Shown piece by piece: positions 28,754 to 64,000 of a stretch of 64,000 nt of DNA. A program made the translations under genes and the position numbers. The stretch's first letter is position 1; every line of letters begins with the position of its first letter. The DNA lies in the sequence record MH816966. The stretch is one strand, 5' to 3'. Origin of the DNA: Escherichia phage FEC19. The notes under the pieces are model-generated. The model was not told the origin of the DNA and searched no databases. It saw only the letters and a program-made list of their open reading frames with translations.

Positions 28754-30541
28754 TTATGCGCTTCTGTACCAGCCGTTCAAGACGACATATCGCGGCAGAG
28801 TTGAAACAGCCGTTGGGACGGACTGCCCTGCATCGCCAGTGTTACCGACCACATCGTGAGTGTGAGCGGGGAGGGTATATCCATGGCTGTGATTGCCAGC
28901 GTAATTTATATTCAACCCATGAGTGTGTGACCCAGAAGATTGAATATTGTGAACGTGGTTGCCGTTAGTTGAGGTGTTGTATTTATAGTTGTCCCAGTCG
29001 CCGCCCTTTCGACTTCCGAAGTTGTTGTGCGTCCCATCATACACGCCATACCGCGCATCATTCGTATTTGCTTCACCCCAGCTACTGTCATGGTGGTGGT
29101 TGCCTGCTGAATCCATTCCGTGCACGTGAGCACCGTTTTGACTGGTATCGCCTGTGTGGTTATGGTTGCCTGCGTCTCCAGTGGTATTGGACCATGGACC
29201 ACTCTGTCGCGTAGTTATGTTCACGCTGTGATTGTGCAGAGGAAGCATGGCGGCGGTAAGAGTAACAGAGTCTGCACCTCCAGTGTCAAGACCGTTTCTT
29301 GCCGTGCCAGACGTCCTGATGACCATGTTATCAGGCAACCTGGTCCATACCTGACCGTAAGCGCCCAGTTTAGTATTTGGGTTAGTGCCATTAGTCAAGA
29401 ATCGAGTCTCACCGACTTCGAATACATCACCCATAGTTATCAACTTCGCGGCCAAAGCATCGAGTTGGCGCTTTGTGACAAACTGTTGCGGCTCACTAGC
29501 ATCGACACCGATTTGCGCCGCGCCGAATGCTTGAAGAAGACGCCAAACGGTGCCGTCATAAATAATAGTAAAAGGAAGAAGACCGACGATGGACCCTGCT
29601 GGCAGCTCGCCGCCGTCGAATCCAAGGACTGCAACTTTGTTTGCACCAATGGTCACGGTAACAGGTCCGGTGGTCGTTACATCATTGACAATTGTCAGGC
29701 GACTACCTGCTGACGGAGGCCATGAATAACCTGCTGGAACGGTAAGGATTATATCTTGTGCGCCTTTACCTGATGCAAGATTCGGCGTTCCAATTTGCAC
29801 GTCTTGAACAGTTGCATTTTGAATCCAAGCACTCCAAGCGCCAGACGTATAAGAGCGGGTGAAAACATATCCGTTCATTGACGTGTATTGTTGCAGGGCG
29901 AAAGTCTGCGCATTAACCTGCCAAGCGCAAACCTGGAGACGACCTGCAACCTTCGTCGCACCAACCGCGTTCGGGATGTTAGAGCAGAGAGCGGCGACTG
30001 CGTCAGATTGAATAACAATAGTTGTGGAAGTCGTGATATTATCAAAGTCCACAAAGTTTGAAATCAGTCCGCGAACAAAATACGGGTTTTGCGCATCGCC
30101 GCCAGCAGGCATAGGAATATATTTTCGCGCTTCGCTAGGCAGCGTCAATTCCTGCCAAGATTCCGTTTCGCCGTTAGCTGGGACTGCGCTGGTGTTGCCG
30201 TCAACCACGCTCTGGAAAATGCGCCATTCAGGCGCTGAAGGGGTGCCAGAGTTGCTTACAACGATGGCATTTTTCGGGTATCCATCTGGCTTCAAGTCAG
30301 ACGAGAAATACTGTTGAGCGCCGTGGTCCTGGATGAACATAAGGTTGTCGGTGATCAGATTCAGCAACCAGTTCATCGACTCACGTTCAACTGCTTTCGC
30401 GGCGACGTTTCCGGCTTCCAGCGCAAGTGCATAGTCAGGGGTGTAGCCGCGCTGGAAGTTCACATAACCGCTTGGACTTGCATCCGGCACCACGGATACA
30501 TCACCGCTTTGCGCGAAAGGTCTGTTAATAAGTGTTGGCAT
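28754..30541 (-). CDS. tail fibre protein with His-rich C-terminal repeats
   Basis: Start refined to MPTLINRPF; C-terminal HNHSV, NHNHTG, AHVHG, NHHHD, NHVHN, SHTHG, NHSHG, AHTHD repeats resemble metal-binding HxH motifs of long tail fibre tips. Confidence 0.7.
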   Translation of the reverse strand: MPTLINRPFAQSGDVSVVPDASPSGYVNFQRGYTPDYALALEAGNVAAKAVERESMNWLLNLITDNLMFIQDHGAQQYFSSDLKPDGYPKNAIVVSNSGTPSAPEWRIFQSVVDGNTSAVPANGETESWQELTLPSEARKYIPMPAGGDAQNPYFVRGLISNFVDFDNITTSTTIVIQSDAVAALCSNIPNAVGATKVAGRLQVCAWQVNAQTFALQQYTSMNGYVFTRSYTSGAWSAWIQNATVQDVQIGTPNLASGKGAQDIILTVPAGYSWPPSAGSRLTIVNDVTTTGPVTVTIGANKVAVLGFDGGELPAGSIVGLLPFTIIYDGTVWRLLQAFGAAQIGVDASEPQQFVTKRQLDALAAKLITMGDVFEVGETRFLTNGTNPNTKLGAYGQVWTRLPDNMVIRTSGTARNGLDTGGADSVTLTAAMLPLHNHSVNITTRQSGPWSNTTGDAGNHNHTGDTSQNGAHVHGMDSAGNHHHDSSWGEANTNDARYGVYDGTHNNFGSRKGGDWDNYKYNTSTNGNHVHNIQSSGSHTHGLNINYAGNHSHGYTLPAHTHDVVGNTGDAGQSVPTAVSTLPRYVVLNGWYRSA

Positions 30542-30551
30542 TGCCGTTCCT

Positions 30552-33290
30552 CTACACGATGTATTTAATTTTTGATAAAAGGGTTGATGCCCAATCACCA
30601 GTTAAGTCAGTTATGTTCATGCTTGAAACATAACCACCAGCAGCACTTCTCGGAAAGTTTACTGTTGCTACAACATCACCATTAGAAGCAATCAATTGAA
30701 TTCCAGTGGCAAGTGATCCTGGGTTTTTGATGTATATAGAAGTCGCAGTTTTCTTTGCGAAATCTTCGCTTGTTGAAATTGCAAGCGCATTCATCGTACT
30801 ACCAGACACAAGCATCAAGCTTAAAATATCAAGTTCAAGAGTCGTACCAACTTCGGTCGGCAAGTCTTTCCCTGATATCAAACCGATGCTGATGCCGCCT
30901 GTCGATCCATCCCAGGTAGAGCCTTCAACAATCTCAGCGGCAAGGTCAATTTCGATACGTTGCAAATCACCTGCGCCTATGTTGTAGAATTTAGGGATAT
31001 AGCCACCCATCCCATCCGGTACAGTTACAAAAAGTTTTTGACCGTTAACCGTGTTGTTTTTGACTATTGCGATAAACGACAAAGGGCCAGTCAGGGTGCC
31101 AGTGTATTTAGTAGCAAGTACAGCGCGTGCATAACCGGACGCTGGCACAGTCCCTATTGTAGCGGAAAGCTTGAATGATGGGAACTGGTTGGGCACACCG
31201 CTGATTGGCGTCGCTGTGACAGTGTTTACGCCATCCTCAATGATATTGCCAAAAGATGTACCGTCGTTTGGCTGTGTGTAGCGCCAATAGTTAGTGATTG
31301 CCGTGCGTGGTATTTCACGACCAAAGTCATCTCTTGATGCTTTTGAGATTGAATAGTCGTTGACAAGCGCGCCGTCGACGACCTGGTTCACACCTTTCAA
31401 AGATTCAAGCTGGCGTATCACACCGTTGAAGTTGTTCAGCGGCCACTCGTTAATGCCGCCAACTCTGATGATACCGTCAGTGTTAATCCACGCAACACCT
31501 TCCGTTTCAAATCCTACGCGCGTGTCTGTTATGTCGCTGACAGTCAAATCGATATCAGATAAGTCTGCGACTTCTTGGTAAAGCTGCCATCGTATTCCGG
31601 CATTTGCTGGCAAGAATCCTTCATTCCTGTCGCCAACTAGCGTCTTAAAGTTGTCAGACAGGTTGTTGGCGAAATAAGGTCCGATGACGTATTCCATGTA
31701 ATAGTCGGCGGTCGGAGGCGGCGGTACTCCATCCAGCCTGCTAACGTTCCATGAGCGTCTGATTCCATCAGTCTCTGCAATCAGCGTGGCGTTCCCTGGG
31801 TACGGGTAGCCGCCGATTGAGCCAGAGTATGCAAGTGATGAGCCAGGTTGCATGAATGACTCGCCAACTACACCGTTTCTTGTCGTCAGCGGTCCGTTTG
31901 CACAGGAGATGTTATTGAGCGTTCCCGCCGTTACAGACAGGATTGCTGTTCCGTCAGAAGGAGGGTTTTGCGTTCCATAAAAATAAGGCTCAGGCCCATT
32001 TGGATTCTGAACAGGGTCGCAGACGCAAATCGAGTATCCAAACAAAAGGGCATCAGACCCTTCAGGCAATTCACGAGTTTGAGTTGATCCAGCGGCAGTC
32101 GCCTTCAACTCTATTGAAAAGCTGGTACTTACTCCAGAAGCAGCGGTTGCCGTCTGCTCTACAATCCAGATTCGATACCAATCGCCGCCAATTGCTTTTA
32201 TGCCACCACGGTTTGATTCCCTTCTTACTCCATCGAATTTGCCTTTGATGAAATAGCTCAATGACGGGTCCAAGTTGAACTGGCCAGTGACGGGGTCAAA
32301 CAGCTTTCCATTACTCGATGCATCACTATTCTCTGTAACAGAAACAGAAGCGACGTTTTCAGAAAGCACCTTTATGTAGAAGCTATAGCAAACGTTGACG
32401 CCAGCCTGCGAAGGAAGCGAAATTGATTTGGCACTTGGATTATTGGCCAAAGAATACACAGGCTCACCGCTTGAAGCCGTCTTGATGACCCTTACTGCGT
32501 TGGCAAAATTCTCTATGGCCTCGCCTGGGTAATCGCCACACAACTGCCCATAGTAATCAGGCCCACCATACTGTCTGGTATCGCCGCCGACAAGCCCTGC
32601 GCCGGAACCATTTCCCCATGAGTACCAATCTGGGTGCGCCATCCGTGACACGGTGCCTGACACTCCGCTGATGGTCAGCCCGGCGTTGTTGCCATGGCTT
32701 AAAAGTATCTGCTTATAATCATGCTGAATCTCAGTTGACCCCTGCCAGTCGTACAGAAGGAATGAGCCATTGGTTGATTCAGACGAAGACACCGCGCCTT
32801 GAGTATTGTCGGTCACATATGCGTAGCGTGATGAAGAGTAATCCCAAGACTCTCCACGGTTGAAAATCCACTTAAGCATGCGGTTGATACTTTCGATGCG
32901 GCCATCACTTGTAAGCGTCAGATAACGAAGCTTAAGAAGTATGCGCGCTTCTTCGATATTCTTTACAACCTTCCCGCCAGCACCAAAGAAGTTGCCGCCG
33001 ATGTTGTCCGCACCTTCAAAGTTGTCGCGCGTCGGTCCAAACGCCCAGTTGTGCTCATAATTGCTTAAGTCCACAAAGTCTCTTGGTATGCAAAGAATGT
33101 CGCACCAAATATAAATTCCCATTGCATCACAAGTGTCAATGTTAAAAATGTTATTGTACCAGTCAGTCCAAAACTGATCTTGGTATCTTTCATACCAGTC
33201 ACTTTTCTTTTGCACCAAAGATGTAATGTTTGGTGCATTGTTCTGCATCCACTTAAGGTTTTGCAACAGGTTTGTGTCAAACTTTTGCAT
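30552..33290 (-). CDS. large tail fibre/baseplate-associated structural protein (912 aa)
   Basis: Gly/Ser/Thr/Asn-rich beta-type composition; between the baseplate J-like gene and the fibre gene. Confidence 0.55.
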   Translation of the reverse strand: MQKFDTNLLQNLKWMQNNAPNITSLVQKKSDWYERYQDQFWTDWYNNIFNIDTCDAMGIYIWCDILCIPRDFVDLSNYEHNWAFGPTRDNFEGADNIGGNFFGAGGKVVKNIEEARILLKLRYLTLTSDGRIESINRMLKWIFNRGESWDYSSSRYAYVTDNTQGAVSSSESTNGSFLLYDWQGSTEIQHDYKQILLSHGNNAGLTISGVSGTVSRMAHPDWYSWGNGSGAGLVGGDTRQYGGPDYYGQLCGDYPGEAIENFANAVRVIKTASSGEPVYSLANNPSAKSISLPSQAGVNVCYSFYIKVLSENVASVSVTENSDASSNGKLFDPVTGQFNLDPSLSYFIKGKFDGVRRESNRGGIKAIGGDWYRIWIVEQTATAASGVSTSFSIELKATAAGSTQTRELPEGSDALLFGYSICVCDPVQNPNGPEPYFYGTQNPPSDGTAILSVTAGTLNNISCANGPLTTRNGVVGESFMQPGSSLAYSGSIGGYPYPGNATLIAETDGIRRSWNVSRLDGVPPPPTADYYMEYVIGPYFANNLSDNFKTLVGDRNEGFLPANAGIRWQLYQEVADLSDIDLTVSDITDTRVGFETEGVAWINTDGIIRVGGINEWPLNNFNGVIRQLESLKGVNQVVDGALVNDYSISKASRDDFGREIPRTAITNYWRYTQPNDGTSFGNIIEDGVNTVTATPISGVPNQFPSFKLSATIGTVPASGYARAVLATKYTGTLTGPLSFIAIVKNNTVNGQKLFVTVPDGMGGYIPKFYNIGAGDLQRIEIDLAAEIVEGSTWDGSTGGISIGLISGKDLPTEVGTTLELDILSLMLVSGSTMNALAISTSEDFAKKTATSIYIKNPGSLATGIQLIASNGDVVATVNFPRSAAGGYVSSMNITDLTGDWASTLLSKIKYIV

Positions 33291-56657: not shown

Positions 56658-56834
56658 ATTATAGTTTGCTTGTACAAGCTATATCAAGTAAAATTATGAT
56701 TCCAGCTTAGTAGTGGATAAAGGGTGATCTTTCGGCCAGATTTTTTCTGGCCATTTTTTTGATTAAAATTCACAAAAAGTTTGCCTTTCTGAAACTCTGC
56801 GTTATAATCATATTAACTCAAAACCGGAGGTAAT

Positions 56835-57050
56835 ATGAAACTCATCGACCGTGCCATCAAAGCCATAGATAACCATTCCACAGCTATTGCATTTGTAATG
56901 GGATTCTGTTTTACTGCTGCGTTTGGCGACGTTCACACATTCAAGTCTGTCATCTTGTGCTGGTCTATCTGGTCCCTCATTTCTCTGGTTTTGATTCTTC
57001 CGATGACGTGGCTTATCCTTACTTGTCTGGAATCTCAAGGTGAAGACTGA
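56835..57050 (+). CDS. small two-TM membrane protein (holin-like)
   Basis: GGAGG RBS; two hydrophobic helices and a charged C-terminus (LESQGED). Confidence 0.4.
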   Translation: MKLIDRAIKAIDNHSTAIAFVMGFCFTAAFGDVHTFKSVILCWSIWSLISLVLILPMTWLILTCLESQGED

Positions 57051-57271
57051 TGAGACTATCAATCAAAGAGCGGGCAAAACGTCCCAAAAGGAGTGAGCCA
57101 AAAGCGAAATATACATGCGTAGGCGGTCCATTCGACGGTCAAGCGATGTGGCTTTCAAAATCTAATCCATCGACGGTTGAGTTTAGCCTTCATGGAATGC
57201 GCGGCAGATACCTGCTAAACAGAGAAACAATCGGCAGCACATTTGTGGAGTGGAAAGAAAATGGCAAGTGA
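57050..57271 (+). CDS. hypothetical basic protein (73 aa)
   Basis: TGATG-coupled ORF. Confidence 0.4.
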   Translation: MRLSIKERAKRPKRSEPKAKYTCVGGPFDGQAMWLSKSNPSTVEFSLHGMRGRYLLNRETIGSTFVEWKENGK

Positions 57272-57494
57272 ATTAACTTTAAAAGTACCAAAAGAAGTGC
57301 TAGATAAGGCATATGCAGATTCTGTAAAAGAATTGGCCGTGGTGCTTGGGATTGAAAATGAATTTAACGTTCAATTGCAATTCCTTAAGGACACGCTTCA
57401 AATTAAAGAGAATAGAGAGGCTGGAAGCGGTGCGCCTTTAGCTCTGGCAATCCTCTATACAGGTCTGATTTTGCAATCTGGAGACGAACTGTGA
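57261..57494 (+). CDS. hypothetical protein (77 aa)
   Basis: Start refined to MASELTLK. Confidence 0.4.
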   Translation: MASELTLKVPKEVLDKAYADSVKELAVVLGIENEFNVQLQFLKDTLQIKENREAGSGAPLALAILYTGLILQSGDEL

Positions 57495-57652
57495 ATCGTT
57501 GGTGCAGTTGGAAGTTGAAACGTCTTGCCTGGGCCAATGCCGCCAATTCTGCTGGCCCAATCACCGCTGGCGTTGGGTCGGTATGGGATGGCGAAGGCCG
57601 TTGGGACTCGCTGTGTGGTACGCGCCTATTCTTTCGCGTAAAATAATTATCA

Positions 57653-57680
57653 CCCTTCCCACTTCGGGAAGGGAATTTAA
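57653..57680 (+). terminator. hairpin, possible terminator or attenuator
   Basis: CCCTTCCC-ACTTC-GGGAAGGG followed by AATTTAAA. Confidence 0.4.
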
Positions 57681-57690
57681 AGAGGTTATC

Positions 57691-58032
57691 ATGAACAACA
57701 CTTTATCACAACTGCTAATCTGGACTATCGCCGCTATCATCGGCACCGTCATTATGATGTCAAGCGCAAAGGCGCAAACTGATATTTGCGGCAGACTTAT
57801 TTCTGAGAATGGCGAGATTTATTATGGCAACTCAAAAGGCGATTATATATCACCTGAAGTTTGCGCTCAGAAGAAGGCGGAAATGCAAAAGCAGTATCAT
57901 GAAGATCAATCCATATCTCAGGCCGCGCTGATTGAATTAAGTATATCAGCCATCATCTTTCTGATCGTTTTTATGCTCATTATTAAACCAAATAATGACA
58001 GCAACCGTCATATTCCTCTCAAAAGAAATTAA
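57691..58032 (+). CDS. membrane protein with N- and C-terminal hydrophobic helices
   Basis: ATG at 57691 after AAAGAGG; the longer ORF-track N-terminus is rejected. Confidence 0.45.
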   Translation: MNNTLSQLLIWTIAAIIGTVIMMSSAKAQTDICGRLISENGEIYYGNSKGDYISPEVCAQKKAEMQKQYHEDQSISQAALIELSISAIIFLIVFMLIIKPNNDSNRHIPLKRN

Positions 58033-58070
58033 GGCTATAATACGGTTGTCGACAAAACGAGGACCGTAAA

Positions 58071-60407
58071 ATGCCAAGGCTAATATTCAAAAACAACTTT
58101 GAGGTCGCGCTTGCTCAGCCAACGACGACTTCAGACACCACAATTACAATCCGCTCAGGGTCGGGCTTTCCGACCTTGGCCGCAAACGAGCGTGTAGTGG
58201 CGACAATCGTCGACGCTGCAACAGGCCTCCAATTCGAAATCATCACAGTAACAGCCGTCGTTGGTGATGTCCTGACCGTTCAGCGTGCACAGGAAGGGAC
58301 TGCAGCGCGTGCATGGGCGGCTGGCGACATGCTTTCCATTCGAACAACTGCTGCGACTTTGACGGGTACTGTCCGAAACTTTGGCGTAATTCCTAATGGA
58401 GTAAACCTTAACGCGCTGAACGGAAGCTGGTTCGGGCAGTATTACCAACTGGCTGATTCTGGGGCATCAATATCACTCAACTATCCTGTCGCACAAGCGG
58501 GAATACTTGAAGTTTTACAAACGGGAGTTTCAACGAACGGATGTGTTCAGCGATACACACCTTACAACACTAACACTGTATACCAGAGGCTGTATAATGC
58601 CATCACATCAACTTGGTCTGATTGGGTTCAAGTTTATAATACGCAAAGCGTTATACCAGTCGCAAATGGCGGTACAGGACAAACGACCATCCAAGGGATG
58701 AAGTCTGCTTTTGGATTCGGAACGGTCGCTGATCAAAACATTGTTCCCACTTCAATGGGCGGTACGGGATCAGCAGACAATGCGCAGGCATGGCTTAACA
58801 TTCGTCCACAAGGGTCGACTCCGCTGGCTGGCGACCCTGTGAATGATTATGATGCCGCAACTAAGCGTTGGGTTGAGAACTTAGTAAATACTGGCACCGT
58901 TGGCCCAAGCATGAACGGTGTTATGAACTATGGCGTCGGTGACTTCCACTTACGCGACAGTCGTGCTTATATTCAACCATATGAAGTCGTTGCTGATGGG
59001 CAGTTGTTAAACCGCGCTGACTGGCCTGAACTTTGGGCGTATGCGCAAATGCTTTCTCCTATTGCTGATGCCGACTGGCTTGCTGACCCAGCGAAACGCG
59101 GCAAGTATTCACTTGGTAATGGCACAACGACATTCCGTGTACCAGACAGAAATGGTGTCCAGACCGGTTCCATACAAGCCTTATTTGGCAGGGGTGACGG
59201 CGGTAATTCATCGGCCAACGGAGTCGTTTCTGAGTCAGGTGCACCAAATATAACTTACTCCGCGCCGCACACAATGGTCACGTTGGCTTCTGCGCCAAGT
59301 CAGGTGGCGACTAATGGCGCTTTTCAGTCGATCACTTCTGGGGACTCTCCAGCAGCAGCAGGTTCTGGTTCAAGATTCATACAAACAAACTTTGACGCTT
59401 CTCGATCAAGCCCTGTATACGGAAGATCAGCAGCGGAAATCGTTCCGCGTAACTTTGTTGGCGTTTGGGTGATTCGTGCATCGGGTGGCTTTGTTGCCGC
59501 GAATACGACTTGGAGCGTTATTAATGGTGACGCAGTAAAACCTGCAACCGGAACGCTTGTCAGAGGCGGCAGTGTAAAATCTGAATATAAAATTGGCACC
59601 AACATTGCGTATCAAGCATTCTTGCAAGCATACGGTAAGATTGATGGATTAACGTCTGAACAAGGTGCTGTGATATCTAATGGGGTGCAAGAATGGAAGT
59701 TTGCGCAAGATGGCACATTTTATTTCCCTAACTCCATAAATCAAATTGGCACGGAAAGGACAGACGGGGCGCTGAATGTTAATGCATATCTCAGACCAAA
59801 AGACCTTGTTGCGCAACCGTTAAACTCAGTAGGCGTTGCAGCGTATGAAAGCAACGGCATGAGGATGATAAACTTCAACCAGTCAACACCTGGGTATGTA
59901 TCATATTTTTCAGGGGATTGGTATGCTGGCAGCTATACATTCGGAGGCGTTCGAGGCACTGGAACTGATTTGATGCACGCGCAAATATCCATAAACAATG
60001 GGCAAGGCGCTGCAGCAGATTTCAAATTCATGCCTGATGGTACTGCTACTGCAGGGAACTGGGTCAGCACGTCTGATGAGAGGGTCAAGACAAATATTCA
60101 AAGGATCTCCGACCCGTTAGGAAAGATGAGATTGATCAAGGGTGTGACTTGGGAGCGCCTTGATAAGTCAGAGAAACCGAATGGCATCGGATTTATAGCT
60201 CAAGATGTAGAAGGTGTATTTCCTGACGCAGTAAAAACTTTGAAATATTCAAACACGGAACTCAAGGATGGGACTGTTGTCGAAGATATCAAGTCAGTTG
60301 ACACTTACGGCGTTGCAGCGGCACTGCACCACGAGGCTATTCTCGCATTGATGGATCAAATAGATGAACTCAAGGCAGAGATAGCCGCGCTGAAAGCAGC
60401 GAAATAA
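58071..60407 (+). CDS. tail fibre/tailspike with C-terminal S74 intramolecular chaperone domain
   Basis: C-terminal SDERVKTNIQRISDPLGKMRLIKGVTWERL and coiled-coil tail, typical of self-cleaving chaperone domains of fibres and endosialidases. Confidence 0.8.
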   Translation: MPRLIFKNNFEVALAQPTTTSDTTITIRSGSGFPTLAANERVVATIVDAATGLQFEIITVTAVVGDVLTVQRAQEGTAARAWAAGDMLSIRTTAATLTGTVRNFGVIPNGVNLNALNGSWFGQYYQLADSGASISLNYPVAQAGILEVLQTGVSTNGCVQRYTPYNTNTVYQRLYNAITSTWSDWVQVYNTQSVIPVANGGTGQTTIQGMKSAFGFGTVADQNIVPTSMGGTGSADNAQAWLNIRPQGSTPLAGDPVNDYDAATKRWVENLVNTGTVGPSMNGVMNYGVGDFHLRDSRAYIQPYEVVADGQLLNRADWPELWAYAQMLSPIADADWLADPAKRGKYSLGNGTTTFRVPDRNGVQTGSIQALFGRGDGGNSSANGVVSESGAPNITYSAPHTMVTLASAPSQVATNGAFQSITSGDSPAAAGSGSRFIQTNFDASRSSPVYGRSAAEIVPRNFVGVWVIRASGGFVAANTTWSVINGDAVKPATGTLVRGGSVKSEYKIGTNIAYQAFLQAYGKIDGLTSEQGAVISNGVQEWKFAQDGTFYFPNSINQIGTERTDGALNVNAYLRPKDLVAQPLNSVGVAAYESNGMRMINFNQSTPGYVSYFSGDWYAGSYTFGGVRGTGTDLMHAQISINNGQGAAADFKFMPDGTATAGNWVSTSDERVKTNIQRISDPLGKMRLIKGVTWERLDKSEKPNGIGFIAQDVEGVFPDAVKTLKYSNTELKDGTVVEDIKSVDTYGVAAALHHEAILALMDQIDELKAEIAALKAAK

Positions 60408-60414
60408 TTCACTC

Positions 60415-60440
60415 AAGGCGCTGAAAAGCGCCTTTACTTT
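60415..60440 (+). terminator. rho-independent terminator after the fibre gene
   Basis: AAGGCGCT-GAAA-AGCGCCTT followed by TACTTTAT. Confidence 0.6.
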
Positions 60441-60460
60441 ATGCGCTATTAAGTTATACT
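60433..60460 (+). promoter_or_regulatory. sigma70-like promoter
   Basis: TTTACT-16-TATACT, overlapping the tail of the preceding terminator. Confidence 0.45.
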
Positions 60461-60488
60461 CATTATACGTTAACAAGTGAGGTGTATT

Positions 60489-60770
60489 GTGAAATTTGAA
60501 GATATTGATAAGGCTCATAAAGCAAAAGCGTTGCCTAAATATGTGATTTGCGGAATTGATCCTGAAGACAACCGCTTGGTTTTCTTGAAACAAGTTGATA
60601 GCAATGATTCTGGCGACGCAGTTAATTGGTGCATCCCTTTGTTTGAGACAGCAGAAGAAGCCCAGAAAGTATTGTCAGAAAGCAATCTGCCTAAACACTA
60701 CAACGTGATTTCACAAGATGACATGGCAAAATTAGTGTTTAATTTTATGGATATTGGGAGAAGGTTCTAA
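60489..60770 (+). CDS. hypothetical protein (93 aa)
   Basis: GTG start after GAGGTG; downstream of a TTTACT-16-TATACT promoter. Confidence 0.4.
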   Translation: MKFEDIDKAHKAKALPKYVICGIDPEDNRLVFLKQVDSNDSGDAVNWCIPLFETAEEAQKVLSESNLPKHYNVISQDDMAKLVFNFMDIGRRF

Positions 60771-61766: not shown

Positions 61767-62147
61767 ATGTCAAATAAGAATGATTCTATTCACAATACAT
61801 ATACTAAAGGCAGCGGAATGGCCTTTGGTGGCAGTATCAAAATTGACGCTCCATCTTGCGATTCTGATGGATTGGAAGTCGGCAACCGAGACTTAACATG
61901 GGTTTTACGTCGCCAATCCGATTTAGAAGAGAAGCTGGAAAATATTGAGCGTTCTCTTGAAAGTCTTCGCGACCAGCTTTTTGGTTGTCCTGAAGATGAT
62001 TCAAAACCTGGACCATATGCATCCAATCATGGTTTGATTGATAATATGCTTGCTATTACCGCTCGATCAATTGGTAAAACTGTGTCCATTGAATCATTGA
62101 TCAGTCAGATTGCGGATGGCTTTGGTGATGCCCATAAGAGTGAATAG
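61767..62147 (+). CDS. hypothetical protein (126 aa)
   Basis: Start refined to ATG at 61767 after AAAGGT; followed by a terminator. Confidence 0.4.
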   Translation: MSNKNDSIHNTYTKGSGMAFGGSIKIDAPSCDSDGLEVGNRDLTWVLRRQSDLEEKLENIERSLESLRDQLFGCPEDDSKPGPYASNHGLIDNMLAITARSIGKTVSIESLISQIADGFGDAHKSE

Positions 62148-62176
62148 TGGGTGTTGCTGATTTAACCGTGAATCGT

Positions 62177-62202
62177 GGGTCGCTGTGGCGGCCCTTTCTT
62201 TT
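62177..62202 (+). terminator. rho-independent terminator ending the plus-strand right block
   Basis: GGGTCGC-TGTG-GCGGCCC (one G-U pair) followed by TTTCTTTT. Confidence 0.6.
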
Positions 62203-62216
62203 GCCTGCCGCGCAGG

Positions 62217-62679
62217 AGTGTACTGCAAATTTACTGTGGGCACAAAATAGTACGGTACTGTCTAGGACTTTTTCTTTGAAAAGTTAGTGGACCAAATGTG
62301 TCGTATTTTGATTAGTGTACTGCAAATTTCATCAAGTACCAAAACGCACCAAAAGACCCATGCCCTAAAAACCACACGAACGCAATAATCAATCGCCGTT
62401 ACAGTTTCCAGCGTTACAATTAGAAAGCGAATGATTCGGCGCATAATAATATGAAGCATAATAGTTCGAAAGCGAATGATTGCGCGCAGAATAATATCGG
62501 TTGGGATTATTCTAGATGTCGGTAATTTCGCATGCGTACTATTTTCGGGCGAAGGGTCGGCATATTTCTCGTTTTAGTTCGGAACGAAGGGAAAGTTTTG
62601 CGCCTTTATAAAACAACGACTTGCGCGACCCGCCTTAACGTTCCGATATAGGTGTCTATATAAAACAACGACTTACGCG
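62217..62679. repeat. direct-repeat-rich noncoding region
   Basis: 16-bp AGTGTACTGCAAATTT at 62217 and 62314; about 30-bp GAAAGCGAATGATT...ATAATAT at 62424 and 62468; 22-bp TATAAAACAACGACTT(G/A)CGCGA at 62606 and 62658. Confidence 0.6.
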
Positions 62680-62802
62680 ATGTTCTCCATTTAACGTAAT
62701 ACCTGTTATGCGAACTAAGGCGCATCTCGATGAAGATTATGCGACGAAGAAGGGAAGGATAAAGGAGTTTTCGCGGAGAAGCGCATCGAGATAGGGGCGA
62801 AG

Positions 62803-62824
62803 AAAAGCCGCGACTAAGCGCGGC
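62803..62824 (-). terminator. rho-independent terminator ending the CpG-rich minus-strand gene set
   Basis: GCCGCG-ACTAAG-CGCGGC with a U-run following on the minus transcript. Confidence 0.55.
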
Positions 62825-62850
62825 CTATTAGTAACGGTGGGTGATTATAA

Positions 62851-63060
62851 TTAAAGGAATAATCCGGCGCGTTTAATTTGCCCAAGGACGTTATCGCGAC
62901 GGCGACGCATAACCGCGTATTTAACTTCTTCTTCGTATCCCCAGCCGCCGATGGATAACATCGAGTTCATATTATCGCATAATTCCTTAAGCTCGCGAAA
63001 CATATCGATTACGGCGGAGCGATGGGCGCGCGCGTTAAGAGAGTTATTCATATTAATCAT
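62851..63060 (-). CDS. hypothetical protein (69 aa), CpG-rich island
   Basis: ORF with codon composition distinct from the rest of the window; followed by a minus-strand terminator. Confidence 0.4.
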   Translation of the reverse strand: MINMNNSLNARAHRSAVIDMFRELKELCDNMNSMLSIGGWGYEEEVKYAVMRRRRDNVLGQIKRAGLFL

Positions 63061-63070
63061 TTTCTTCTCC

Positions 63071-63361
63071 TTAAAGGCTTACGATTTTAAAGAAAGTTAC
63101 TTCGCCGCCGAGTTGCGGTACAGCGATATATTCGCCGCCGATTTCGGTAATCGTATAAACGAAGCCGTTAATCGTTACGCGGTAGGATACGATGTCCTCG
63201 TCGCGATACTTGTAAAGGTCGAGGAAGTTGATCGGCTCATAAATAGCCTCGATAGTCGCGTCGACGTTAAAAAGATAGACGTGTTTAAGTTTTTCACCAA
63301 ATACATTGGAGTTTTCGGAAGTCTCGACGCGAGCGTCGCGGATAGCGGCTAAAGTAATCAT
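63071..63361 (-). CDS. hypothetical protein (96 aa), CpG-rich island
   Basis: ATG preceded by CTAGGAG RBS and the conserved promoter/leader cassette. Confidence 0.45.
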   Translation of the reverse strand: MITLAAIRDARVETSENSNVFGEKLKHVYLFNVDATIEAIYEPINFLDLYKYRDEDIVSYRVTINGFVYTITEIGGEYIAVPQLGGEVTFFKIVSL

Positions 63362-63429
63362 AATATTCTCCTAGTTAGTCGGGAGGGTAGCGACCTATTC
63401 GCTACCTCATCCCCTCTCGATATAAAACA

Positions 63430-63457
63430 TTATAGTCTTAGTGTACGAATAAGTAAA
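63430..63457 (-). promoter_or_regulatory. promoter of conserved right-end cassette (copy 1)
   Basis: Minus sense TTTACT-16-TATAAT with conserved flanks, upstream of 63071-63361. Confidence 0.5.
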
Positions 63458-63468
63458 GCACTTTTTCG

Positions 63469-63771
63469 TTATTTTGCGATAAAATATTTATAAGCCTTAT
63501 CGCCTTCTACGTCGATATACTCGACGATAATTAATTCTTCGCCGCGTGGCGTAACCGTCTCGATAAGGGTAACGGCTTCGTCGTCGGTCTTCGCGAAGCG
63601 GATTGCGCTACGTTCGGCATACTTAATATCGTCGAAGGATAATCCGACGAAGGCGACGGCGCGCGCTTTAATAATGCTCGTTTCGAGTTCCGCGTTAACG
63701 GCGGCGATAAGAGAGCGAACGGTTAAGCGGTCTTCGTCGTAAGTAAGGATAGAAGAGATTAAAGTGGTCAT
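63469..63771 (-). CDS. hypothetical protein (100 aa), CpG-rich island
   Basis: Start refined to ATG at 63771 after GGGAG; its own TTTACT-16-TATACT promoter. Confidence 0.45.
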   Translation of the reverse strand: MTTLISSILTYDEDRLTVRSLIAAVNAELETSIIKARAVAFVGLSFDDIKYAERSAIRFAKTDDEAVTLIETVTPRGEELIIVEYIDVEGDKAYKYFIAK

Positions 63772-63827
63772 AATAAAACTCCCGGTGCTAGTAGAAGGAA
63801 GGGCCATCGCCCGTCTCGATATGAACA

Positions 63828-63855
63828 AGTATACGCGAGTGTACGAAGAAGTAAA
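63828..63855 (-). promoter_or_regulatory. promoter of conserved right-end cassette (copy 3)
   Basis: Minus sense TTTACT-16-TATACT followed by the GTTCATATCGAGACGGG leader, upstream of 63469-63771. Confidence 0.45.
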
Positions 63856-63899
63856 GAAAAAAGATAAAATAATTTATCGCATTTTTATCGAAAAAGTGC

Positions 63900-63927
63900 T
63901 TTACTTTTTTCTACACTATATTATAAT
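63900..63927 (+). promoter_or_regulatory. promoter of conserved right-end cassette (copy 2)
   Basis: TTTACT-16-TATAAT driving a plus-strand gene whose ATG is at 63998 (truncated by the window end). Confidence 0.5.
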
Positions 63928-64000
63928 GTACTCATATCGGGACGGGATGAGTTAACGAATAGGTCGTTAACGCCTCTCCCCAACTAGGAGTTTATTATGG

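What the first reader, a model, noticed from the sequence alone, without database searches (positions are those of the whole stretch)
58071..60407. Third fibre gene with S74 chaperone domain on the opposite strand to the tail module
A 778-aa fibre or spike with a self-cleaving chaperone domain is encoded on the plus strand with its own promoter and terminator, in addition to the two fibre genes in the minus-strand tail operon. This suggests dual receptor specificity or a depolymerase-type spike acquired separately.
Basis: partly seen in the sequence, partly recalled or inferred. Interest (0 to 1): 0.35.

Follow-up and report, generated by a model that had tools for sequence, protein, structure and literature searches.

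The report
Known dual-tip phage tail fibre
This gene is the already-described host-recognition tail fibre of Wifcevirus coliphages, a non-enzymatic, self-processing fibre built from swappable receptor-binding modules; it is not a new spike or a depolymerase.

Summary
The ORF is real (58071-60407, + strand, 778 aa) and carries a C-terminal Peptidase_S74 chaperone domain. It is 100% identical to the annotated tail fibre of Escherichia phage FEC19. It is the ortholog of the Wifcevirus "T-shaped tail fibre" described by Humolli et al. 2025 (PLoS Biol): an N-terminal anchor, a Gp12-like RBD1, a T5-like RBD2 and a self-cleaving chaperone. The gene sits at the same locus in every Wifcevirus examined. 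Its first 100 aa are at least 91% identical across the genus, and its receptor-binding modules are mosaic. The predicted cleavage site S668|D669 aligns with the experimentally mapped site of EP335 gp13 (59% identical over aa 255-778). No depolymerase fold was found; the only tailspike-like fold hits come from a pyocin-type knob domain. Orthologs were detected by mass spectrometry in phage preparations. The terminator is supported, but an own promoter is not. One modest addition: the RBD1 "head" cassette (aa 362-466) is 96-97% identical to that of four O16-dependent phages that otherwise differ in RBD2. This bears on which domain reads the O-antigen, a question the BASEL authors left open.

The parts
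56781..56808 (+). Best sigma-70-like promoter candidate (TTGCCT-16-TATAAT, 10 of 12) at the head of the plus-strand gene array that ends with the fibre gene
   Evidence: sequence. Consensus match only; function not shown.
56835..58032 (+). Five small co-directional ORFs upstream of the fibre gene. The last one (57691-58032, 113 aa) has a signal-like N-terminus and a C-terminal hydrophobic segment.
   Evidence: same array annotated in relatives; the Eco4M-7 record notes a TM domain and signal peptide; no family hits
58036..58041 (+). Lone TATAAT hexamer 30 nt upstream of the ATG, with a poor -35.
   Evidence: conserved, but so is the whole flank; motif not recurrent
58059..58063 (+). Shine-Dalgarno sequence GAGGA, 7 nt before the ATG
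   Evidence: read directly from the sequence
58071..60407 (+). Tail fibre CDS, 778 aa. It is 100% identical to the Escherichia phage FEC19 tail fibre protein and orthologous to the Wifcevirus T-shaped tail fibre (Bas99_0109, vBEco4M7_27, ECML-117 AFO10457).
58071..58370 (+). aa 1-100: N-terminal anchor (presumed baseplate attachment). Identity to the query averages 94-99% across 119 homologs. It is related to the N-terminus of the Ralstonia phage GP4 fibre (8jov).
58371..58670 (+). aa 101-200: pyocin-type knob domain, variable module VR1 (52-80% mean identity among homologs)
58671..59153 (+). aa 201-361: GGTG linker repeats and the conserved RBD1 scaffold with a Collar-like motif (TTFRVPDRNG). 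Identity among Wifcevirus is 91-99%, and the stretch is near-identical to DT57C LtfA (aa 526 onwards).
59154..59468 (+). aa 362-466: RBD1 'head' cassette (VR2), hypervariable and swapped as a unit. It is 96-97% identical to Bas98-101 (O16-dependent phages).
59571..60071 (+). aa 501-667: distal tip RBD2 (VR3). It is 98% identical to EC150, 80% to Ro157lw and 58-65% to ECML-117, Eco4M-7 and EP335 gp13.
60072..60404 (+). aa 668-778: intramolecular chaperone (Peptidase_S74). S668 and K673 are invariant. Cleavage is predicted between S668 and D669. The domain ends in a helix (aa 745-777).
60415..60434 (+). Intrinsic-terminator-like hairpin (8-bp stem, GAAA loop, T-rich tail), followed by a promoter-like site at 60433-60460 for the next genes
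28754..30598 (-). The other fibre: a conserved 614-aa tail fibre in the tail module, homologous to Pbunavirus gp47
   Evidence: PMC11990801 (conserved fibre with a T4 gp37-like tip)
30552..33290 (-). 912-aa DUF2612 baseplate wedge or 'triplex' homolog with a long C-terminal extension.

Best explanation
The gene encodes the variable, host-range-determining tail fibre of a Wifcevirus myophage (FEC19 or a near-identical genome). It is a homotrimeric, non-enzymatic fibre.

Domain order: a genus-conserved N-terminal anchor (aa 1-100), a pyocin-type knob (101-200), a conserved scaffold carrying a laterally exposed Gp12-like RBD1 whose 'head' is a swappable cassette (362-466), a distal T5-like RBD2 tip (501-667), and a C-terminal intramolecular chaperone (668-778).

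Proposed mechanism: the chaperone nucleates trimer folding of the tip and then removes itself by Ser-Lys autoproteolysis between S668 and D669, leaving a mature fibre of 668 aa. The mature fibre docks on the baseplate through its anchor and binds surface glycans, most likely O-antigen. The separately encoded, conserved gp47-like fibre plays a more mechanical, invariant role.

Host range evolves by homologous recombination that exchanges the knob, head and tip-plus-chaperone modules independently. Recombination uses the invariant flanks and internal conserved blocks as crossover points.

Shown here: the ORF, the domains, the invariant catalytic residues, synteny, the mosaic pattern and the clean cassette swap. 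Shown by others for homologs: virion or lysate presence by mass spectrometry, self-cleavage, O157/O26 cell binding, O16 dependence, and the T-shape in AlphaFold-Multimer models. Inferred: baseplate docking, the ligand of this allele, and the timing and source of transcription.
For: Identity: the protein is 100% identical to the FEC19 tail fibre.

Synteny: orthologs sit at the same locus, between terL and the terminal repeat, in all Wifcevirus records.

Published description of the family: the T-shaped fibre with dual RBDs is described in PMC11990801.

RBD1 scaffold: near-identical to DT57C LtfA aa 526-825 (domain E 1.5e-116). LtfA is the O-antigen-specific host-range determinant of DT57C (PMC4728585).

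Mosaicism: per-window identity profile, independent assortment of modules, and a clean swap confined to aa 362-466 against P0005. The tip and the chaperone co-vary (r = 0.94).

Expression: vB_Eco4M-7_27, confirmed as the ortholog, gave 34 peptides at 80% coverage and the top protein score; the ECML-117 82.9-kDa fibre gave 18 peptides (PMC7048862).
Against: My own tests of the two RBD fold labels were weak. hhalign against T4 gp12 was not significant with either profile. The Pfam Collar hit is below the cut-off (20.3 bits against 24). Foldseek to the T5 tip gave only E 0.12. The full-length monomer model is poor (pLDDT 51), so the T-shape could not be reproduced here.

No experiment exists on this allele. 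FEC19's host serotype is not documented in the papers held. Enzymatic activity has never been assayed for this family. The mass-spectrometry samples also contained non-structural proteins, so they show expression and presence in the preparation but not strict virion incorporation. The gene sits among small early-looking genes and has no demonstrable late promoter.
Confidence: 0.85

Rival explanations
1. Single-determinant fibre. Only the RBD1 head cassette reads the O-antigen and sets host range. The distal RBD2 tip is mainly a folding nucleus or a low-specificity secondary contact, so the protein is not truly bispecific.
For: The four O16-dependent BASEL phages share only the head cassette (96-99% identical). 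They carry two unrelated RBD2 types (Bas99 against Bas98/100/101: 10-16% identity) and different knobs. The BASEL authors report that the RBD2 phylogeny does not correlate with host recognition and suggest a bigger role for RBD1. P0005-P0009 differ from the query essentially only in the head.
Against: RBD2 is the most variable part of the protein (25-51% mean identity). It is exchanged horizontally together with its chaperone across three phage morphotypes, which is the pattern expected of a ligand-contacting surface under diversifying selection. O157-associated phages (ECML-117, Eco4M-7, Ro157lw, EP335) share an RBD2 family (59-88% identical) while their heads differ (30-53%). That correlation is weakened by Bas89 and EC150.
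Confidence: 0.3
2. Depolymerase-type tailspike that enzymatically degrades O-antigen or capsule.
Confidence: 0.03
3. Not a virion component: an early-expressed, fibre-derived protein (for example a decoy or superinfection-exclusion factor), because it lies outside the structural operons among small early-type genes near the terminal repeat.
For: The location and orientation; no demonstrable late promoter.
Against: It was the top-scoring protein in the Eco4M-7 phage preparation and was also detected in ECML-117. It has a conserved anchor domain of the type used by virion fibres such as that of GP4 (8jov, 18 chains in the portal-tail complex). O16 dependence of relatives is attributed to their tail fibres.
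Confidence: 0.02

Closest known systems
Wifcevirus T-shaped tail fibre (ManiWeber/Bas99 'Gp114', GenBank Bas99_0109; Humolli et al. 2025, PMC11990801)
   Same: Same locus and orientation. Identity is 96% in the anchor, 98% in the RBD1 scaffold and 96% in the RBD1 head. The domain order is the same and it ends in a C-terminal S74 chaperone.
   Different: The knob is 51% identical. The RBD2 tip is unrelated (18%) and the chaperone is 34% identical. This allele carries another tip-plus-chaperone module, shared with EC150 (98%) and Ro157lw (80%).
EP335 gp13 (Gordonclarkvirinae podovirus; Witte et al. 2021, PMC8217332)
   Same: 59% identity over aa 255-778, covering RBD1, RBD2 and the IMC. The cleavage serine aligns exactly. 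It is experimentally a cell-binding fibre (O157, O26) with measured self-cleavage.
   Different: The N-terminus differs: it attaches via a proximal fibre, gp12, and has no Wifcevirus anchor or knob (23% and 13% identity). The head cassette is only 47% identical.
DT57C LtfA (T5-like siphovirus L-shaped or branched fibre; PDB 8hqz chain d; Golomidova 2016, Ayala 2023)
   Same: The distal half (LtfA 541-1074) is homologous to aa 235-787 of the family profile (E 1.5e-184). The RBD1 scaffold is near-identical. It ends in an S74 chaperone and is a genetically proven O-antigen-specific host-range determinant.
   Different: LtfA has a T5-type N-terminus, a coiled coil and a docking region for a second fibre, LtfB; none of these is present here. 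The head segment diverges. Only the LtfA N-terminus is resolved structurally.
Intramolecular chaperone of endosialidase K1F, T5 pb1, GA-1 gp12 and MyRF (Peptidase_S74, PF13884)
   Same: Pfam match above the cut-off, an invariant Ser...Lys dyad (S-D-E-R-x-K), a terminal helix, and fold matches.
   Different: It is attached to a fibre tip, not to a sialidase beta-propeller or beta-helix.
R-type pyocin fibre knob domain (PDB 6cl6, 6cu2) and the Pbunavirus gp47 fibre knob (9b45_2)
   Different: There is a single knob, placed directly after the anchor. In this family it is a variable, independently assorting module.

Membership tests
Peptidase_S74 intramolecular chaperone (IMC) fibres and spikes | C-terminal domain matching PF13884 above the curated threshold | tested here: met
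   49.1 bits against a cut-off of 22, aa 668-722
Peptidase_S74 intramolecular chaperone (IMC) fibres and spikes | Conserved catalytic serine, with a lysine five residues downstream, at the domain boundary | tested here: met
   S668 and K673 are invariant in 58 alleles. S668 aligns with the mapped cleavage serine S621 of EP335 gp13.
Peptidase_S74 intramolecular chaperone (IMC) fibres and spikes | IMC fold ending in a long helix | tested here: met
Peptidase_S74 intramolecular chaperone (IMC) fibres and spikes | Autoproteolytic release of the chaperone after trimer folding | not testable with these tools
   Shown by ESI-MS only for the homolog EP335 gp13 (PMC8217332)
Wifcevirus T-shaped dual-RBD tail fibre (Humolli et al. 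2025) | Genus-conserved N-terminal anchor and the same locus between terL and the terminal repeat, plus strand | tested here: met
   Anchor 91-98% identical in 27 Wifcevirus records. The same neighbours are annotated in 7 records. The flanks are nearly invariant.
Wifcevirus T-shaped dual-RBD tail fibre (Humolli et al. 2025) | Gp12-like RBD1 (collar and head related to the T4 short tail fibre tip; InterPro SSF88874) | tested here: inconclusive
   Direct tests were weak. Pfam Collar scored 20.3 bits, below the cut-off of 24. hhalign against T4 gp12 picked the correct LPD..RG.F.RG motif, but at probability 1%. The indirect case is strong: 98-99% identity to the Bas98-100 scaffold, HHpred on EP335 gp13, and the SSF88874 note in the Mansfield record.
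Wifcevirus T-shaped dual-RBD tail fibre (Humolli et al. 2025) | T5-like RBD2 tip immediately preceding the IMC | tested here: inconclusive
Wifcevirus T-shaped dual-RBD tail fibre (Humolli et al. 2025) | T-shaped trimer with RBD1 projecting laterally | not testable with these tools
   Only monomer prediction was available (pLDDT 51). The published AlphaFold-Multimer models are for Bas99, Bas87 and Bas32 homologs.
Depolymerase tailspike | Central right-handed beta-helix or another glycan-degrading catalytic domain | tested here: not met
Pyocin-knob-domain fibres | Knob fold of R-type pyocin fibres | tested here: met

The most novel reading that the evidence does not exclude
The fibre is a three-slot combinatorial adhesin: the knob, the RBD1 head and the RBD2 tip each contact a ligand and are shuffled independently. 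This particular allele would be a natural bispecific chimera. It pairs the head cassette shared by all four O16-dependent BASEL Wifceviruses with a tip from the family found in O157-associated phages. FEC19 would then recognise two different O-antigens with one protein. Comparing it with the natural head-swap variants (P0005-P0009) and with the tip-sharing EC150 would answer directly the question the BASEL authors left open: which RBD reads the O-antigen.
Probability: 0.25. Interest if true: 0.45.

Novelty: already known. Interest (0 to 1): 0.2.

Why it matters
This fibre is the main host-range determinant of a phage genus used against E. coli O157, with relatives among therapeutic Pbunaviruses. 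Knowing its module boundaries helps host-range prediction and fibre engineering. Those boundaries are the anchor (1-100), knob (101-200), head cassette (362-466), tip (501-667) and chaperone (668-778), together with the conserved crossover blocks. The gene and its architecture are already annotated and published, so the finding itself adds little. The small new point is correlative evidence that the RBD1 head tracks O16 dependence, while RBD2 and the knob vary freely among those phages.

Tried and rejected
1. hhalign of the family alignment A1 (Neff 2.3) against T4 gp12 gave no match. Repeating with a diverse profile of 138 cluster representatives (Neff 4.1) aligned the Collar motif, but not significantly.

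2. A profile search of PDB sequences found neither gp12 nor T5 pb1.

3. Full-length AF2 as a monomer was poor (pLDDT 51).

4. The search for a recurring late-promoter motif based on AAGGYTATAATAC gave 3 matches against 1.8 expected, none upstream of structural genes.

5. NCBIfam gave no hit for the fibre. PHROGs gave no function for the neighbouring small genes.

6. I considered predicting O22 specificity from the DT57C LtfA match and rejected it, because the match breaks down exactly in the head cassette (alignment).

7. I considered predicting O157 specificity for RBD2 and downgraded it. Bas89, isolated on K-12 O16, has a tip 78% identical to that of EP335. The closest tip (98%) is in EC150, isolated on ECOR36.

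8. FEC19's host serotype could not be found in the papers held.

Full report
**Observation.** The ORF is exactly where stated: 58071-60407, plus strand, ATG start, 778 aa. Pfam finds a Peptidase_S74 'chaperone of endosialidase' domain at aa 668-722 (E 6.8e-13, above the cut-off). PHROGs matches a tail-fibre family over the full length (E 9e-237). The tail module (about 28-39 kb) and head module (about 42-56.7 kb) are on the minus strand, so 'opposite strand' is correct.

A clean hairpin lies 8 nt after the stop codon (60415-60434, AAGGCGCT-GAAA-AGCGCCTT plus a T-rich tail). In six relatives the stem is kept while the loop is GAAA, TTTC or TTC, which supports a real structural element.

An 'own promoter' is not supported. 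The scan reports nothing directly upstream. The sequence shows only a lone TATAAT (58036-58041) with a poor -35, and that motif does not recur elsewhere. The gene is the last large gene of a co-directional array that begins at 56835, downstream of the best promoter-like site (56781-56808).

**Identity of the window and of the gene.** The protein is 100% identical to 'tail fiber protein [Escherichia phage FEC19]'. The surrounding 24 kb is 92-97% identical to Wifcevirus genomes such as Ro157lw, ECML-117, EC150, WFH, WFC, vB_Eco4M-7 and Bas98-101. In every annotated relative the same gene lies at the same place: divergent from terL, after five small plus-strand genes, and before the direct terminal repeat of about 3.7 kb. 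More than 100 further full-length homologs (55-99% identity) occur on metagenomic contigs of about 68 kb.

**What is already known.** Humolli et al. 2025 (PLoS Biol, PMC11990801) describe this gene family as the Wifcevirus 'T-shaped tail fiber':
- It has an N-terminal anchor for direct baseplate attachment, a Gp12-like RBD1, a T5-like RBD2 and a C-terminal intramolecular chaperone.
- The N-terminus is conserved and the RBDs are variable and horizontally exchanged.
- Wifceviruses have two fibres. The other one, in the tail locus, is conserved.
- Their four isolates depend strictly on O16 O-antigen.
- They state that their data do not show which RBD is critical.

**How many fibres.** The 614-aa minus-strand ORF is the conserved fibre, homologous to Pbunavirus gp47 (9b45_2, E 4e-32). 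The 912-aa ORF is not a fibre. Its N-terminal 185 aa match the Pbunavirus baseplate wedge or 'triplex' protein (9b45_v, 8env_K) and DUF2612, followed by a long extension with no solved homolog. So this is the second fibre, not the third.

**Anatomy, tested here.**
- aa 1-100: anchor. Identity is 94-99% across 119 homologs and at least 91% in 27 Wifcevirus records. It then drops to below 60% in fibres of unrelated phages (GP4 = PDB 8jov, Bcep22-like phages, Klebsiella RothC), and no Pbunavirus has it.
- aa 201-361: GGTG linkers plus a scaffold that is 91-99% conserved and near-identical to DT57C LtfA from residue 526 on (domain E 1.5e-116). It contains a Collar-like motif.
- aa 362-466: a hypervariable cassette. 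Against P0005 the protein is essentially identical everywhere except in this block.
- aa 501-667 plus 668-778: a hypervariable tip and its chaperone, which co-vary (r = 0.94).
- S668 and K673 are invariant.

**Virion association.** In a mass-spectrometry study, vB_Eco4M-7_27 gave 34 peptides, 80% coverage and the highest protein score. I confirmed it as the ortholog by locus tag and coordinates. The 82.9-kDa ECML-117 fibre gave 18 peptides (PMC7048862). The samples also contained some non-structural proteins, so this shows expression and presence in the preparation but is not formal proof of incorporation.

**Module genealogy (the one addition).** A per-module identity matrix shows the following:
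- Bas98, Bas99, Bas100 and Bas101 are all experimentally O16-dependent. They share the head cassette (96-99% identical), and FEC19 carries the same cassette (96-97%).
- Bas99's RBD2 is unrelated to that of the other three (10-16%), and its knob differs (47-50%).
- So among the variable modules only the RBD1 head tracks the O16 phenotype. This agrees with the BASEL authors' tentative preference for RBD1.
- FEC19's tip belongs to a family also found in O157-associated phages: Ro157lw 80%, ECML-117 64%, Eco4M-7 61%, EP335 58%.
- That link is weak. Bas89, isolated on K-12 O16, has a tip 78% identical to EP335's. The closest tip (98%) is in EC150, isolated on ECOR36.
- The ligand of this allele's tip therefore remains open.

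**Spread of the module.** The distal RBD1 plus RBD2 segment has 1089 relatives among 50%-identity cluster representatives (154 at E <= 1e-30). Most of them cover only the RBD1 part. RBD1 is thus a common, widely shared module.

**Verdict.** This is a real and correctly located gene, but it is already annotated and its family is already described.

Noticed in passing
window 57691-58032 (+): A 113-aa ORF lies immediately upstream of the fibre gene. It has a signal-like N-terminal hydrophobic segment and a C-terminal hydrophobic segment. It is conserved at this position in all relatives (the Eco4M-7 record notes a TM domain and signal peptide), and it has no Pfam, NCBIfam or PHROG hit.
   Followed up: partly
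window 60477-60770 (+): A small ORF follows the fibre terminator and a promoter-like site (60433-60460). Its Eco4M-7 counterpart, vB_Eco4M-7_26 (10.5 kDa), was detected by mass spectrometry in the phage preparation with 62% coverage, so it may be virion-associated. It matches no family.
   Followed up: partly
window 30552-33290 (-): The 912-aa baseplate wedge or 'triplex' homolog (DUF2612) has about 700 residues beyond the part shared with the 500-aa Pbunavirus protein, including a weak head-spike-fibre-like stretch (aa 285-398). It is a speculative docking platform for the extra fibre that Pbunaviruses lack.
   Followed up: partly
window 60415-60434 and the same site in L001, L002: The terminator hairpin keeps its 8-bp stem, but the loop reads GAAA in most phages, TTTC in Bas100 (the reverse complement of GAAA) and TTC in WFH.
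   Followed up: no
window 28754-30598 (-) and 30552-33290 (-): The listed GTG start of the 614-aa fibre ORF overlaps the end of the wedge gene by 47 nt. Homology to gp47 begins at residue 20, so the true start is probably further downstream.
   Followed up: no
window about 62000-64000; L003 12103-15775: By comparison with phage Mansfield (3,673-bp direct terminal repeat predicted by PhageTerm), the end of the window probably runs into the terminal-repeat region. The fibre gene lies only about 2 kb from that boundary.
   Followed up: no
window 56734-56752 (+): A second strong hairpin followed by a T-run (GGCCAGA-TTTTT-TCTGGCC ATTTTTTT) lies in the divergent region between terL and the plus-strand array. 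It is annotated as a terminator in phage WFH, and its role between two divergent starts is unclear.
   Followed up: no
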